Shown piece after piece: positions 1 through 64,000 of a stretch of DNA of 64,000 bases. The first letter of the stretch is position 1; the number at the start of each line of letters is the position of its first letter. The stretch is taken from positions 41,408,001 to 41,472,000 of the forward strand of contig CP086569.2 in NCBI GenBank assembly GCA_009914755.4. The letters are read 5' to 3'. The notes beneath the pieces were generated by a model. It had not been told where the DNA came from and did no database searches. It worked only from the letters and a program-made list of their open reading frames with translations. This DNA comes from the human T2T-CHM13v2.0 reference genome, Homo sapiens. The position numbers and the translations under genes are program-made.

Positions 1-1518
1 GTCATATATATAATATATATAACCTATGTATAATATTGTTTTACATCCTGCATCTTATGTTATATATATTGTATAAAATATAATAATTGATAATATATAA
101 GTTTTATATTTATACAATATGACATATAGTATATATTATAATTTATGACATATATAATATATGTTATATGTCATATATAGAAAATATTATACGGTTAATA
201 TACGTATTAAATATAAATTATACATTATATATATTATATATAATATATCTGTTATATATAATACCCATTATGCATAATATATATATTATGTCTATGTTAT
301 ATATAGTATAAAACAACATATAATAATATATAATTGTATATATAAAATGCGACATATAATATATATTATATTTTATAACATATGTAATATATATTATATA
401 TAATACGTTGTATGTATAATACCTATATTAAATATATATTATATGACTATGTTATTAATTACATGTCACATGTGTTATATATTATATATTTTACATAGAA
501 TATACCGGTTACATACAATATATACTATGTTACCTATAATGTATAATTTATTACATGTAAAATAAAGAATGCAATATATTATGTATAATTTATAATATAC
601 CATATGTGGAATGTGATATATATAACATATAATATATGATATATGATATACAGTATATGATATATAACATACAATATATGATTCCTAATATATATGGTAT
701 ACAATATATATTTTATGATATGTATTCTATATGTTTTATATTCTGTTATATATAACTATTTGAAATTATATATAACTGTATAATATTTTATGTAAATATG
801 TAATATAATATATATAACTATATAATATATTATATATAACTATATATTATGTTATATATACTTTTATAACATAATTTACATAAAATATCATAATATAATA
901 TATATTATATTATTTCATATTACATAATATATATTACATATCACCCAATATAACTAACATACATAATATTATAATATAGATTATATTGTGTTATATTAAA
1001 TATCATATATATCATGTATCATATATTCTATAATATATATTACACATTATATAATATGTATGTTGTCTATTATGTGATATATATAACTCTATATATAATT
1101 ATATTTTTATACATATAACTAGATAAACATGTAATTCTACATATTTTCATTTATAATATGTAGAATTATATAATCATATATAATTATTTATATTCTATAA
1201 AAAATTTTATCATTCTATAAATTATAATATATAAAAATTATAATATGTACTACAAATATATATATTATATATCATATATGATATAGTACCTTTGTTATAT
1301 ATCATAATACATATAAATGTGTATTATGTTATCTATAATTATATAATTTCATATATAAGATGTATAATATGTATCATATATTATATATGTTATGTAATAT
1401 ATATAGTATATATAAGATGACACAGGATAAATATTATATACTATGACATATAAAATATATGAGGTTATATGTTACATATAAGGCATAGCACATAACATGT
1501 AATATATATCATATATAA
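1..1518. repeat. Partial leading satellite unit: AT-rich module only, starting mid-unit.
   Basis: The sequence aligns to the AT-rich module of later units, e.g. 2416-3936, with a few substitutions. Confidence 0.9.
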
Positions 1519-1810
1519 TTTTTTTTTAGACAGAATCTTGTCCTGTTGCACAGGGTGGGGTACAATGGCGCCATCTTTGCTCACTGCAACTTCTGCCTCA
1601 CGGGTCCAAGCGATTGTCCTCCCTCAGCCTCCCAGGTAGCTGGGACTCCACCACACTGGGACTACACCAGCTGCCACCATGCCTAGCTAATTTTTTGGAT
1701 TTTTAGTAGTGACAGCCTTTCACTGCATTGGCCAGGATGATCTTGATCTCTTCACCTTGTGATCCCCTTGCCTTGGCCTCCAAATTTGCTGGGATTACAG
1801 GCCTGAGCCA
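1519..1810 (-). mobile_element. Alu SINE copy, antisense and 5'-truncated, embedded in satellite unit 1.
   Basis: The element runs from the poly-T run 1519-1527 (the Alu A-tail on the minus strand) to '...gctgggattacaggcctgagcca'. The intervening sequence 'agacagaatcttgtcctgttgcacagggtgg...gctcactgcaa...cctcagcctcccaggtagctggga...taattttttggatttttagtagtgaca...ttcactgcattggccaggatg...cttgatctc...gtgatcc' matches the reverse-complement Alu consensus. It lacks the first ~12 nt of Alu ('GGCCGGGCGCGG'). CpGs have decayed. Boundaries are +/-5 bp. Confidence 0.88.
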
Positions 1811-2415
1811 AGATCCATATTTTTTAAATGAAAAAAAATTTCAAAGGTACTCTGCTTGGTACAATAATCAAATGTATAAACTGAGGAATAAAACATAACC
1901 ATGAAACCTACTTATAACTGCATATGGAAAATACAGAGGATAATTTTTTAAATAACATATTTTGAAAGCCTTAACTAGTAATTTGAAGAGTTGGCATTTG
2001 AAAGGCCAGTATGAATATACCTTCAAAGCAGCAACACAGGTTCCCCATGAGAAAAAGCAAACACAGGGAAAATAAAAACACAAAGGTTCAATCTCTTCTG
2101 ACCTTTGAAAGACACAGCACAGACAGTGGTCCTTAGGACGAAGACCAGGAGACCCCTAATTCCGTCACCATGGCGATAGGGCATAAACATTGCTGGGTGA
2201 GGGCACAATCCACATTGTGAGGTCCAACTGCTGCCAAGAAGACAGGAGTGCTTTTACATAGACCGAAAGGTCATTGAAGGCTCAGAGTTTTGTTTCAAGA
2301 ACTGAATCCCAAGCCCACACGTTATTAGGCTGCGCTTCCTAAAACAAGTTATGAGATGGGAAAAAGGGCACCCACAAACATACGTATACATTATGTATAT
2401 AATAATATACAGTAT
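1811..2415. repeat. Non-AT-rich spacer module of the satellite unit (~605 bp), representative copy from unit 1. Its origin is unknown.
   Basis: Mixed-composition sequence 'agatccatattttttaaatgaaaaaaaatttcaaaggtactctgcttgg...gtcaccatggcgatagggcataaacattgctgggtgagggcacaatcc...cccacaaacatacgtatac' is repeated in every unit with >95% identity. It hosts the recurring 61- and 71-aa minus-strand ORFs, which are judged spurious. Confidence 0.8.
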
Positions 2416-59847: not shown

Positions 59848-61973
59848 AGATCCATATTTTTTAAATGAAAAAAAATTTCAAAGGTACTCTGCTTGGTACA
59901 ATAATCAAATGTATATACTGAGGAATAAAACATAACCATGAAACATACTTATAACTGCATATGGAAATTACAGAGGATAATTTTTTAAATAACATATTTT
60001 GAAAGCCTTAACTAGTAATTTGAAGAGTTGGCATTTGAAAGGCCAGTATGAATATACCTCCAAAGCAGCAACAGAGGTTCCCCATGAGAAAAAACAGACA
60101 CAGGGAAAATAAAACCAAAAAGGTTCAATCTCTTCTGATCTTTGAAAGACGCAGCACAGACAGTGGTCCTTAGGACGAAGAGCAGGAGACCCCTAATTCC
60201 GTCACCATGGCGATAGGGCATAAACATTGCTGGGTGAGGGCACAATCCACATTGTGAGGTCCAACTGCTGCCAGGAAGACAGGAGTGCTTTTACATAGAC
60301 CGAAAGGTCATTGAAGGCTCAGAGTTTTGTTTCAAGAACTGAATCCCAAGCCCACACGTTATTAGGCTGCGATTCTTAAAACAAGTTATGAGATGGGAAA
60401 AAGGGCACCCACAAACATACGTATACATTATGTATATAATAATATAGAGTATCATATATATAATATATATAACCTATGTATAATATTGTTTTACATCCTG
60501 CATCTTATACTATATATATTGTATAAAATATAATAATTGATAATATATAAGTTTTATATTTATACAATATGACATATAGTATATATTATAATTTATGACA
60601 TATATATTATATGTTATATATCATATATAGAATATATTATACGGTTAATATACGAATTATATATAAATTATATATTATATACATTATATATAATATATCT
60701 GTTATATATAATACCCATTATGCATAATATATATATTATGTCTATGTTATATATAGTATAAAACAACATATAATAATATATAATTGTATATATAAAATGT
60801 GACATATAATATATATTATATTTTATGACATATGTAATATATATTATATATTATATATAATACGTTGTATGTATAATACCTATATTAAATATATATGATA
60901 TGACTATATTATTAATTACATGTGACATGTGTTACATATTATATATTTTACATAGAATATACCGGTTACATACAATATATACTATGTTACCTACAATGTA
61001 TAATTTATTACATGTAAAATAAAGAATGCAATATATTATGTATAATTTGTAATATACAATATGTGGAATGTGATATATATAACATATAATATATGATATA
61101 TGATATACAGTATATGATATATAACATACAATATATGATACCTAATATATATGGTATACAATATATATTTTATGATATGTATTCTATATGTTTTATATTC
61201 TGTTATATATAACTATTTGAAATTATACATAACTGTATAATATTTTATGTAAATATGTAATATAATATATAACTATATAATATATTATATATAACTATAT
61301 ATTATGTTATATATACTTTTATAACATAATTTACATAAAATATCATAATATAATATATATTATATTATTTCATATTACATAATATATATTACATATCACC
61401 CAACATAAGTAACATACATAATATTATAATATAGATTATATTATGATATATTAAATATCATATATATAATGTATCATATATTCTATAATATATATTACAC
61501 ATTATATAGTATGCATGTTGTCTATTATGTGATATATATAACTATATATATAATTATATTATTATACATATAACTAGATAAACATGTAATTCTACAGATT
61601 TTCATTTATAATATATAGAATTATATAATCATATATAATTATTTATATTCTATAAAAAATTATATCATTATATAAATTATTATATATAAAAATTATATTA
61701 TGTACTACAATTATATATATTATATATCATATATGATATAGTACCTTTGTTATATATCATAATACATATAAATGTGTATTATGTTATCTATAATTATATA
61801 ATTTCATATATAAGATGTATAATATGTATCATATATTATATATGTTATGTAATATATATAGTATATATAAGCTGACACAGGATAAATATTATATACTATG
61901 ACATATAAAATATATGAGGTTATATGTTACATATAAGGCATAGCACATAACATGTAATATATATCATATATAA

Positions 61974-62265
61974 TTTTTTTTTAGACAGAGTCTTGTCCTG
62001 TTGCACAGGGTGGAGTACAATGGCGCCATCTTTGCTCACTGCAACATCTGCCTCACGGGTCCAAGCGATTGTCCTCCCTCAGCCTCCCAGGTAGCTGGGA
62101 CTACACCACACTGGGACTACACCAGCTGCCACCATGCCTAGCTAATTTTTTGGATTTTTAGTAGTGACAGCGTTTCACTGTATTGGCCAGGATGGTCTTG
62201 ATCTCTTCACCTTGTGATCCCCTTGCCTTGGCCTCCAAATTTGCTGGGATTACAGGCCTGAGCCA
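61974..62265 (-). mobile_element. Alu SINE copy (antisense), satellite unit 26.
   Basis: Same element at the unit period. It is a close match to the unit 13 copy. Confidence 0.85.
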
Positions 62266-64000
62266 AGATCCATATTTTTTAAATGAAAAACAATTTCAAA
62301 GGTACTCTGCTTGGTACAATAATCAAATGTATAAACTGAGGAATAAAACATAACCATGAAACCTACTTATAACTGCATATGGAAAATACAGAGGATAATT
62401 TTTTAAATAACATATTTTGAAAGCCTTAACTAGTAATTTGAAGGGTTGGCATTTGAAAGGCCAGTATGAATATACCTTCAAAGCAGCAACACAGGTTCCC
62501 CATGAGAAAAAGCAAACTCAGGGAAAATAAAACCACAAAGGTTCAATCTCTTCTGACCTTTGAAAGACACAGCACAGACAGTGGTCCTTAGGACGAAGAG
62601 CAGGAGACCCCTAATTCCGTCACCATGGCGATAGGGCATAAACATTGCTGGGTGAGGGCACAATCCACATTGTGAGGTCCAACTGCTGCCAGGAAGACAG
62701 GACTGCTTTTACATAGACCGAAACGTCATTGAAGGCTCAGAGATTTGTTTCAAGAACTGAATCCCAAGCCCACACGTTATTAGGCTGCGCTTCTTAAAAC
62801 AAGTTATGAGATGGGAAAAAGGGCACCCACAAACATACGTATACATTATGTATATAATAATATACAGTATCATATATATAATATACATAACCTATGTATA
62901 ATATTGTTTTACATCCTGCATCTTATATTATATATATTGTATAAAATATAATACTTGATAATATATAAGTTTTATATTTATACAATATGACATATAGTAT
63001 ATATTATAATTTATGACATATATAATATATGTTATATATCATATATAGAATATATTATACGGTTAATATACGTATTAAATATAAATTATACATTATATAT
63101 ATTATATATAATATATCTGTTATATATAATACCCATTATGCATAATATATATATTATGTCTACGTTATATATAGTATAAAACAACATATAATAATATATA
63201 ATTGTATATATAAAATGCGACATATAATATATATTATATTTTATGACATATGTAATATATATTATACAGTATATATAATACGTTGTATGTATAATACCTA
63301 TATTAAATATATATTATATGACTATGTTATTAATTACATGTCACATGTGTTACATATTATATATTTTACATAGAATATACCGGTTACATACAATATATAC
63401 TATGTTACCTACAATGTATAATTTATTACATGTAAAATAAAGAATGCAATATATTATGTATAATTTATAATATACAATATGTGGAATGTGATATATATAA
63501 TATATAATATATGATATATGATATACAGTATATGATATATAACATACAATATATGATACCTAATACATATGGTATACAATATATATTTCATGATATGAAT
63601 TCTATATGTTTTATATTCTGTTATATATAACTATTTGAAATTATATATAACTGTATAATATTTTATGTAAATATGTAATATAATATATAACTATATAATA
63701 TATTATATGTAACTATATATTATGTTATATATACTTTTATAACATAATTTACATAAAATATCATAATATAATATATATTATATTATTTCATATTACATAA
63801 TATATATTACATATCACCCAATATAAGTAACATACATAATAGTATAATATAGATAATATTATGTTATATTAAATATCATATATATCATGTATCATATATT
63901 CTATAATACATATTACACATTATATAATATGTATGTTGTCTATTATGTGATATATATAACTATATATATAATTATATTATTATACATATAACTAGATAAA

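What the first reader, a model, noticed from the sequence alone, without database searches (positions are those of the whole stretch)
1..64000. Entire window is a ~2.42 kb macrosatellite (HSat1B / DYZ2-like), not a gene-bearing or prokaryotic region
The whole 64 kb is a single head-to-tail tandem array. 26 phase-locked copies of the unit (Alu + ~600 bp spacer + ~1.5 kb AT-rich module) recur every 2413-2421 bp, and neighbouring units are ~95-99% identical. From memory, this architecture is the one described for human satellite I subtype B, the DYZ2 2.4-2.5 kb Y-chromosome repeat.

The presence of Alu rules out a bacterial or archaeal source. No ORF exceeds 77 aa. The framing that a novel system is hidden here is therefore not supported by the sequence. 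The biologically interesting content is the satellite's internal structure, covered in the other findings.
Basis: partly seen in the sequence, partly recalled or inferred. Interest (0 to 1): 0.5.

Follow-up and report, generated by a model that had tools for sequence, protein, structure and literature searches.

The report
Human DYZ2 (HSat1B) satellite array

Summary
The window holds 25 complete and 2 partial head-to-tail units of 2413-2421 bp. They are 96.2-99.7% identical to each other. No ORF exceeds 77 aa, and there are no Pfam, Rfam-gathering or tRNA hits.

- The window's own consensus is exactly 2,420 bp, the length of the published DYZ2 consensus.
- ACATACG sits at the GC-rich/AT-rich junction, as published.
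- The unit has the published three parts: a 5'-truncated antisense Alu about 18% diverged, a 558-bp GC-richer segment, and a 1,560-bp segment that is 86% AT.
- GC is 24.4% and there is 1 CpG per 147 bp, matching the published 24% and 1 per 150 bp.
- A published 40-nt probe, designed from the 1984 male-specific 2.47-kb satellite I sequence, matches once per unit (19 exact).
- Seventeen human-contaminated "bacterial" contigs are 97-99.6% identical to the consensus.

Within the window there are two haplotype domains (U1-U9 versus U10-U25), mosaic units and multi-unit duplicates. These fit unequal exchange and gene conversion.

Yq12 versus an acrocentric short arm cannot be decided with these tools; Yq12 is favoured at about 0.8. 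The sequence is already known and of low interest.

The parts
1..64000 (.). Uninterrupted head-to-tail DYZ2/HSat1B array (26.5 unit lengths) that runs off both ends of the window
1..1518 (.). Left partial unit (consensus positions 897-2420, 98.6% identical)
1519..1810 (-). U1: Alu element, sense on the minus strand. Its A-tail reads as poly-T at 1519-1527. It is 5'-truncated at about Alu position 13 and carries a 15-nt internal tandem duplication. Only 4 of 26 CpGs are retained. The same part occurs in every unit.
1786..1825 (-). U1: exact match to the ligated arms of the published 'Y-chrom' padlock probe. It spans the Alu-head/flank junction and has a DraI TTTAAA site next to it. It recurs once per unit (26 matches).
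1811..2377 (.). U1: GC-richer non-Alu segment, the part annotated HSATI in the literature (about 39% GC). It contains the recurring 71-aa ORF with no family match.
2378..2384 (+). U1: ACATACG heptamer at the GC-richer/AT-rich junction, the junction motif reported by Hallast et al. It is present in 22 of 25 units.
2385..3937 (.). U1: AT-rich module (86% AT). It is degenerate (TA)n/ATATATA-derived sequence with a 228-230-bp repeat of 1.9 copies and many imperfect inverted repeats.
1519..23279 (.). Domain A: units U1-U9. Ends: U1 3937, U2 6357, U3 8777, U4 11190, U5 13610, U6 16028, U7 18441, U8 20861, U9 23279. Mean identity to the external bulk consensus proxy L001 is 99.0%. U2 and U9 are mosaics.
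23280..61973 (.). Domain B: units U10-U25. Ends: U10 25692, U11 28109, U12 30527, U13 32945, U14 35361, U15 37779, U16 40197, U17 42615, U18 45036, U19 47456, U20 49876, U21 52296, U22 54715, U23 57135, U24 59555, U25 61973. Mean identity to L001 is 98.0%. The units carry alternative alleles at about 13 diagnostic sites.
8778..23279 (.). Local 3-unit (7,251 bp) tandem duplication U4-U6 / U7-U9. U4 and U7 differ at 8 sites and U6 and U9 at 18, against a median of 63. The distinctive U6-type block recurs again in U12.
61974..64000 (.). Right partial unit (consensus positions 1-2029, 98.9% identical)

Best explanation
The window is a stretch of the human DYZ2 (HSat1B, formerly 'HSATI') macrosatellite, most probably from one of the DYZ2 blocks of the Yq12 heterochromatin.

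Each 2.42-kb unit is a fossil composite. It holds one dead, 5'-truncated, CpG-decayed Alu of the Sc/Y lineage, a 560-bp GC-richer segment and a 1.56-kb (TA)-rich module.

The sequence encodes nothing. It persists and changes as a tandem array through unequal sister-chromatid or intra-array exchange, local multi-unit duplication and gene conversion. These processes homogenise neighbouring units and create haplotype domains. In vivo it is packaged as methylated constitutive heterochromatin.

Shown here: the array structure, the lack of coding or structured-RNA content, the CpG depletion, and the mosaic and duplicated unit haplotypes.
Inferred: the recombination mechanism.
Taken from the literature: methylation, sister-chromatid exchanges in Yq12, and the chromosomal location.
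For: Identity:
- The consensus is 2,420 bp and ACATACG lies at the junction, as published.
- The tripartite composition matches: Alu 17.8% substitution-diverged and 5'-truncated, AT-rich part 86.2% AT, GC 24.4%, 1 CpG per 147 bp, as published.
- The 40-nt probe from the 1984 male-specific 2.47-kb satellite I sequence matches all 26 units, 19 of them exactly.
- Seventeen external human-contaminant contigs are 96.8-99.6% identical over their full length. They include a collapsed 2,420-bp circular consensus (L001) that aligns gap-free at 99.5%.
- A virtual HaeIII digest gives a 2.14-kb fragment in 23 units.

Non-coding:
- The longest ORF is 77 aa and there are no Pfam hits.
- No Rfam family reaches gathering score and there are no tRNAs.

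Mechanism:
- Near-identical non-adjacent units occur at fixed spacing. U4/U7 differ at 8 sites, U3/U8 at 13 and U6/U9 at 18, against a median of 63. The U6 type recurs at U6, U9 and U12. U16-17 resemble U24-25.
- Units U2 and U9 are mosaics.
- The domain switches at U9/U10.
- CpG observed/expected is 0.46, and 22 of 49 Alu mismatches fall on CpG sites. This fits long-term methylation.
- The literature reports duplications consistent with unequal exchange, sister-chromatid exchanges in about 15% of Strand-seq libraries, and DYZ2 hypermethylation.

Y location:
- T2T-Y holds 14 Mb of DYZ2 in blocks of 20-1,200 kb, against 'smaller amounts' on the acrocentrics.
- The probe labelled only Yq.
Against: No reference genome could be searched, so the chromosomal placement is a prior, not a measurement.

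Domain B units are only about 98.0% identical to the bulk proxy. Some fall below the '>98%' typical of Y copies. Hallast et al. say that peripheral Yq12 copies resemble the acrocentric copies. An acrocentric or peripheral origin therefore remains open.

RepeatMasker/Dfam annotation was not available.

No in-window data bear on methylation or chromatin.
Confidence: 0.8

Rival explanations
1. The window is the same satellite family (HSat1B) but lies on the short arm of an acrocentric chromosome (13, 14, 15, 21 or 22) or on chr10, not on Yq12.
For: HSat1B arrays exist on the acrocentric short arms. Domain B units are about 2% from the bulk proxy, and unit pairs go down to 96.2% identity. Acrocentric HSat1B is described as low-identity between alleles.
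Against: The amount of HSat1B on Y is far larger: 14 Mb, with 'almost entirely on the Y'. Domain A is 99.0% identical to the abundance-weighted bulk proxy. The 2,420-bp consensus length and the junction heptamer equal the Yq12 consensus. The probe target is intact in all units, and that probe gave signal on Yq only.
Confidence: 0.17
2. The window is an orthologous or related Alu-containing satellite from a non-human ape.
For: The species cannot be read directly from the window. Related satellite families are shared among great apes (which mostly concerns HSat1A).
Against: Units are 97.4-99.4% identical to contaminant copies found in 17 unrelated bacterial assemblies, whose realistic source is human DNA. 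The published human probe matches exactly. The consensus length is identical to the human consensus.
Confidence: 0.02
3. A prokaryotic or viral element, or a hidden gene system, is embedded in the repeat; or the array is an assembly artefact.
For: Identical sequence is filed under bacterial names. A 71-aa ORF recurs in about 10 units.
Against: No unit deviates from 2413-2421 bp, so there is no room for an insert. There are no Pfam hits, no Rfam family at gathering score and no tRNAs. The bacterial records are short contaminant contigs or an N-flanked insert. Units differ in structured, phylogenetically coherent haplotypes, which a collapsed or artificially expanded assembly would not produce.
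Confidence: 0.01

Closest known systems
DYZ2 / HSat1B (Repbase/Dfam 'HSATI'); the male-specific 2.47-kb satellite I repeat of Frommer, Prosser & Vincent 1984
   Same: The unit length and 2,420-bp consensus match. There is one 5'-truncated diverged Alu per unit, a GC-richer segment and an AT-rich module above 85% AT. The ACATACG junction, GC content, CpG density and inter-unit identity all match. The published 40-nt probe target is present once per unit.
   Different: Nothing of substance differs. This stretch shows a switch between a bulk-like and a roughly 1% more diverged haplotype domain, and a local 3-unit duplication. Both are ordinary intra-array variation of the kind reported by Hallast et al. 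and Rhie et al.
HSat1A ('SAR', the classical 42-bp satellite I)
   Same: It is extremely AT-rich and was isolated in the same classical satellite I fraction.
   Different: HSat1A is a simple 42-bp repeat without Alu. No 42-bp array is present here, and the period is 2.42 kb.
DYZ1 (HSat3A6, 3.5-3.6 kb pentamer-derived repeat)
   Same: It is the partner satellite that alternates with DYZ2 blocks in Yq12.
   Different: It is an unrelated sequence, (CATTC)n-derived and 38% GC. None is present in the window, because every base is accounted for by in-phase DYZ2 units.
Alpha-satellite higher-order repeats
   Same: Both are tandem arrays homogenised by unequal exchange, with local domains and multi-unit periodicities.
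   Different: Here the base unit is a 2.4-kb composite. The 3-unit periodicity is confined to about 3 copies and is not an array-wide higher-order repeat (HOR). There is no centromere function.

Membership tests
DYZ2 / HSat1B | Head-to-tail tandem repeat of about 2.4-2.5 kb, with a published consensus of 2,420 bp | tested here: met
   Spacings are 2413-2421 bp. The majority consensus is exactly 2,420 bp. The published value was read.
DYZ2 / HSat1B | One 5'-truncated Alu (ancient AluY, about 20% diverged) per unit | tested here: met
   The alignment covers Alu positions 13-288 on the minus strand. Substitution divergence is 17.8-18.3%, plus a 15-nt insertion. The fit is best to Sc/Y and worst to Jo.
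DYZ2 / HSat1B | An extremely AT-rich region (above 85% AT) plus a GC-richer region | tested here: met
   Consensus positions 861-2420 are 86.2% AT. Positions 303-860 are 60.6% AT.
DYZ2 / HSat1B | ACATACG at the HSATI/AT-rich junction | tested here: met
   It is present at the junction in 22 of 25 units; U8 and U19 carry a point variant of the heptamer and U23 did not match the search string.
DYZ2 / HSat1B | GC about 24% and about 1 CpG per 150 bp | tested here: met
   GC is 24.4% and there is 1 CpG per 147 bp.
DYZ2 / HSat1B | Sequence identity with published DYZ2 sequence | tested here: met
   The 40-nt probe derived from Frommer 1984 gives 26 matches, 19 of them exact. The full published consensus was not available as text.
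DYZ2 / HSat1B | Most units at least about 98% identical to the consensus | tested here: met
   Identity is 97.9-99.2% to the local consensus and 97.4-99.4% to the external bulk proxy L001.
DYZ2 / HSat1B | 2.1-kb HaeIII fragment (historical definition, Cooke 1976; recalled from memory and not found in the held library) | tested here: met
   A virtual digest gives fragments of 2139-2147 bp in 23 units.
DYZ2 / HSat1B | RepeatMasker/Dfam annotation as HSATI plus Alu plus simple repeat | not testable with these tools
   No Dfam or RepeatMasker is available. Rfam gave only sub-threshold Alu-derived mir-1268 hits.
DYZ2 / HSat1B | Location in Yq12, alternating with DYZ1 blocks (or on acrocentric short arms) | not testable with these tools
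   No human reference is available. The window lies wholly inside one block, which is compatible with published block sizes of 20-1,200 kb.
HSat1A (SAR) | Array of 42-bp units | tested here: not met
   TRF finds no 42-bp array. It reports only low-identity periods of 7, 16 and 22 bp and a 230-bp repeat of 1.9 copies.
Prokaryotic gene-bearing locus | Long ORFs, protein families, tRNA or structured RNA genes | tested here: not met
   The longest ORF is 77 aa. There are no Pfam hits, no Rfam family at gathering score and no tRNAs.

The most novel reading that the evidence does not exclude
The window captures a boundary between two DYZ2 haplotype domains, bulk-like U1-U9 and diverged U10-U25. A nascent 3-unit (7,251-bp) higher-order periodicity (U4-U12) sits at that boundary. 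If such multi-unit periodicities arise preferentially at domain boundaries across DYZ2 arrays, it would say something new about where unequal exchange acts in a non-recombining chromosome's heterochromatin.
Probability: 0.1. Interest if true: 0.25.

Novelty: already known. Interest (0 to 1): 0.07.

Why it matters
It matters mainly as a negative result. The window can be removed from any search for new prokaryotic or mobile systems.

It also illustrates that this repeat circulates in public 'bacterial' assemblies as human contamination, in one case scaffolded into a chromosome-scale record. Such contamination can seed spurious genes and false homologies.

The intra-array haplotype structure is a small, clean example of satellite homogenisation, but it adds nothing beyond what the T2T-Y and 43-Y-assembly studies describe.

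Tried and rejected
- Rfam at a permissive E-value on 9 kb gave only sub-threshold mir-1268 hits (26-34 bits against a gathering score of 83) inside the Alu. I read these as Alu-derived, not as a miRNA gene. At gathering score the whole window has no family.
- Pfam on the four longest or recurring ORFs found nothing. The tRNA scan found nothing.
- The roughly 12-kb GC wave in the 2-kb composition profile is aliasing of a 2,000-bp window against a 2,419-bp period (beat about 11.5 kb). It is not a feature.
- An array-wide 3-unit HOR, suggested by the lag-7251 peak, is rejected. Only U4/U7, U6/U9 and (U12) support it. U5/U8 are at background for their domain, and U10's length of 2413 bp comes from different deletions. 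It is a local duplication.
- My first reading of Hallast's '2,413 bp' modal length as equal to the window's 2413-bp units is rejected. Their 2,413 excludes the junction heptamer. The window's three 2413-bp units arise from other deletions in the AT-rich part.
- Frommer 1984 (PMC318713) is not held. Two literature searches for the 2.1-kb HaeIII definition found nothing, so that criterion rests on memory.
- The metagenome scan, the protein-database searches and structure prediction were not used, because nothing here warranted them.
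Full report
**1. Observation**

A conserved 16-mer (TTCCGTCACCATGGCG) occurs 26 times. Successive spacings are only 2413, 2416, 2417, 2418, 2419, 2420 or 2421 bp. Ungapped self-identity peaks at lags 2420 (0.59) and 2418 (0.55).

Cutting at these anchors gives 25 complete units, U1 = 1519-3937 through U25 = 59556-61973. The two partial units, 1-1518 and 61974-64000, align in phase to the consensus at positions 897-2420 and 1-2029, with 98.6% and 98.9% identity. 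The array therefore fills the window and runs off both ends.

No unit departs from 2413-2421 bp, so there is no insertion, inversion or foreign segment. All 26 copies of a 40-mer lie on the same strand.

Pairwise identity is 96.2-99.7%. Adjacent units are 96.2-99.5% identical, mean 97.8%.

The longest ORF in six frames is 77 aa.

**2. Anatomy of the unit**

The majority consensus of the 25 units is exactly 2,420 bp.

- **Positions 1-302: Alu, sense on the minus strand.**
  - Its A-tail reads as poly-T at the unit start.
  - It aligns from Alu position 13 to 288, so it is 5'-truncated.
  - Substitution divergence is 17.8%.
  - It carries a 15-nt internal tandem duplication.
  - Only 4 of 26 consensus CpGs survive, and 22 of the 49 mismatches fall on CpG positions.
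- **Positions 303-860: a GC-richer segment** (39% GC).
- **Positions 861-2420: the AT-rich module** (86.2% AT).
  - It is degenerate (TA)n/ATATATA-like sequence with weak 7-, 16- and 22-bp periodicities.
  - It contains a 228-230-bp segment repeated 1.9 times.
  - It has many imperfect inverted repeats.

The window as a whole is 24.4% GC, with 1 CpG per 147 bp and CpG observed/expected of 0.46.

**3. No coding or RNA-gene content**

The four longest or recurring ORFs match no Pfam family. No Rfam family reaches its gathering score in the whole window. There are no tRNAs. The only permissive Rfam hits are sub-threshold mir-1268 matches inside the Alu.

**4. Comparison with the literature**

| Feature | Published | Window |
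|---|---|---|
[quoted passage not shown] | Consensus length | 2,420 bp | 2,420 bp |
| Junction motif | ACATACG at the HSATI/AT-rich junction | Present at that junction in 22 of 25 units |
| GC content | 24% | 24.4% |
| CpG density | 1 per 150 bp | 1 per 147 bp |
| Unit identity | Most units above 98% identical | 97.9-99.2% to the local consensus |

Rhie et al. also report 14 Mb of DYZ2 in T2T-Y, in blocks of 20-1,200 kb. [quoted passage not shown]

**5. A sequence-level test**

A 2007 paper lists a padlock probe ('Y-chrom') designed from the male-specific 2.47-kb satellite I sequence of Frommer et al. 1984. It labelled only the Y long arm.

Its ligated arms read AAAAAATATGGATCTTGGCT|CAGGCCTGTAATCCCAGCAA. 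This 40-mer matches the minus strand once in each of the 26 units: 19 exactly, 6 with one mismatch and 1 with two. None is expected by chance.

The target spans the junction between the truncated Alu head and its non-Alu flank, so it is specific to this composite unit and not to Alus in general. The DraI site used in that protocol (TTTAAA) lies directly beside it.

A virtual HaeIII digest gives a 2139-2147-bp fragment in 23 units. This matches the 2.1-kb HaeIII band by which DYZ2 was historically defined. That criterion rests on my memory of Cooke 1976, because the held library did not confirm it.

**6. External copies**

An exact 29-mer from the GC-richer segment was found in 17 species-representative 'bacterial' assemblies of unrelated taxa, including Mycobacterium, Bifidobacterium, Streptomyces, Alcanivorax, Chromatium and Sphingobium. 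Almost all hits are on contigs of 0.6-2.5 kb, each with a single match. This is the human-contamination pattern that Rhie et al. report for HSat1B.

The 16 short contigs are made up of this repeat essentially end to end; in L006 only a 1,024-bp stretch between N gaps matches. They are 96.8-99.6% identical to the window consensus.

L001 is 2,497 bp, which is 2,420 bp plus an identical 77-nt terminal overlap. It is a k-mer-collapsed circular consensus of the contaminating genome's copies. It aligns gap-free at 99.5%. I used it as a proxy for the abundance-weighted bulk consensus.

No record in that collection holds more than one anchor. The 64-kb window itself is therefore not one of these contaminant contigs.

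**7. Variation inside the window and the likely mechanism**

- **Two domains.** Against L001, units U1-U9 average 99.0% identity and U10-U25 average 98.0%. About 13 diagnostic sites separate the two domains.
- **Shared variants.** The domain B alleles also occur in other external copies, for example 17G/73A in L010 and L013-L015, and 545T/560C in L006. They are variants circulating among DYZ2 copies, not private mutations.
- **Mosaic units.** U9 switches from the U6 type to the domain B type near its 3' end. U2 is chimeric in the opposite sense.
- **Near-identical units at fixed spacing.** The median over all pairs is 63 differences.
  - U4/U7 differ at 8 sites.
  - U6/U9 differ at 18 sites.
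  - The distinctive U6 block recurs in U12. Together with U4/U7 and U6/U9, this is a 3-unit spacing of 7,251 bp and explains the lag-7251 peak.
  - U3/U8 differ at 13 sites.
  - U16/U24 and U17/U25 are paired at 8-unit spacing.
  - U18, U20 and U21 form a further cluster.

These patterns are what unequal sister-chromatid or intra-array exchange, local tandem duplication and gene conversion produce. The literature reports duplications consistent with unequal exchange, and sister-chromatid exchanges in Yq12. It also reports more divergent units towards array peripheries and DYZ2 hypermethylation. The CpG depletion seen here fits long-term methylation. The recombination mechanism is inferred, not shown.

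**8. Location**

The chromosome cannot be determined with these tools. Yq12 is favoured at about 0.8, for these reasons:
- the amount of DYZ2 on Y is far larger than on the acrocentrics;
- the consensus length and junction motif match the Yq12 consensus;
- domain A is bulk-like;
- the probe signal was on Yq only.

An acrocentric short-arm array is the main rival, at about 0.17. It is supported by the lower identity of domain B and by Hallast's remark that peripheral Yq12 copies resemble acrocentric ones. At the family level (HSat1B/DYZ2) I put confidence at about 0.98.

**9. Verdict**

The sequence is an already described human satellite. Nothing prokaryotic, coding or novel is hidden in it. 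Interest is low.

Noticed in passing
L006:5897-6920 (NZ_HF570958.1, Nostocoides japonicum T1-X7, 5,162,321-bp scaffold): A 1,024-bp human DYZ2 fragment (98% identical to the window consensus, GC about 0.4) sits between two 100-N gaps inside a chromosome-scale actinobacterial scaffold whose flanks are 67-78% GC. It is a contaminant contig that was scaffolded into the genome record.
   Followed up: partly
L001-L017: Seventeen GTDB species-representative 'bacterial' assemblies of unrelated taxa carry DYZ2 contamination; 16 are short contigs made up of the repeat essentially end to end, the 17th is the L006 insert. L001 (Mycobacterium sp., 2,497 bp) is a collapsed circular 2,420-bp consensus with a 77-nt k-mer overlap.
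   Followed up: yes
window 20862-25692 (U9/U10 boundary, about 23.3 kb): The haplotype switches from a bulk-like domain (U1-U9, 99.0% identical to the external consensus) to a more diverged domain (U10-U25, 98.0%). U9 is itself a mosaic, and U10 and U11 are the most divergent units.
   Followed up: yes
window 8778-30527 (U4-U12): A local 3-unit periodicity of 7,251 bp is present. U4 resembles U7 (8 differences) and U6 resembles U9 (18 differences), and the U6-type block recurs in U12. U10's length of 2413 bp mimics the pattern but comes from different deletions.
   Followed up: yes
window 37780-42615 and 57136-61973 (U16-U17 versus U24-U25): A two-unit block recurs at 8-unit (about 19.4 kb) spacing, with 44-45 differences against a median of 63. 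This suggests an older and larger duplication.
   Followed up: partly
window 1623-1689, 4042-4108, 6462-6528, 8882-8948 (minus strand): Sub-threshold Rfam mir-1268 matches (26-34 bits against a gathering score of 83) lie inside the Alu right arm. I attribute them to the Alu origin of that miRNA family, not to a miRNA gene.
   Followed up: partly
window about 1640-1675 in U1, and the same place in each unit: The Alu carries a 15-nt internal tandem duplication (CTGGGACTACACCAC / ACTGGGACTACACCAG on the plus strand). It is shared by the units and so predates the amplification of the array.
   Followed up: partly
window 1868-2083 (minus strand) and the same phase in about 9 other units: A 71-aa TTG-start ORF recurs in the GC-richer segment and has no Pfam match. 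ORFs of this kind could be called as spurious 'hypothetical proteins' in the contaminated bacterial assemblies.
   Followed up: partly
PMC2212658 (text), relating to window 1786-1825: That paper calls its 2.47-kb satellite I target 'DYZ1', but the probe sequence matches the DYZ2 unit exactly. This is a nomenclature slip in the literature.
   Followed up: yes
window-wide: GC in 2-kb bins oscillates between 0.21 and 0.27 with a period of about 12 kb. This is aliasing between the 2,000-bp bin and the 2,419-bp repeat, not a real domain structure.
   Followed up: yes
window-wide: StuI (AGGCCT) cuts about once per unit (26 sites), predicting a unit-length fragment ladder. EcoRI, TaqI, KpnI, HindIII, BamHI, PstI and XbaI cut rarely or never.
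   Followed up: no
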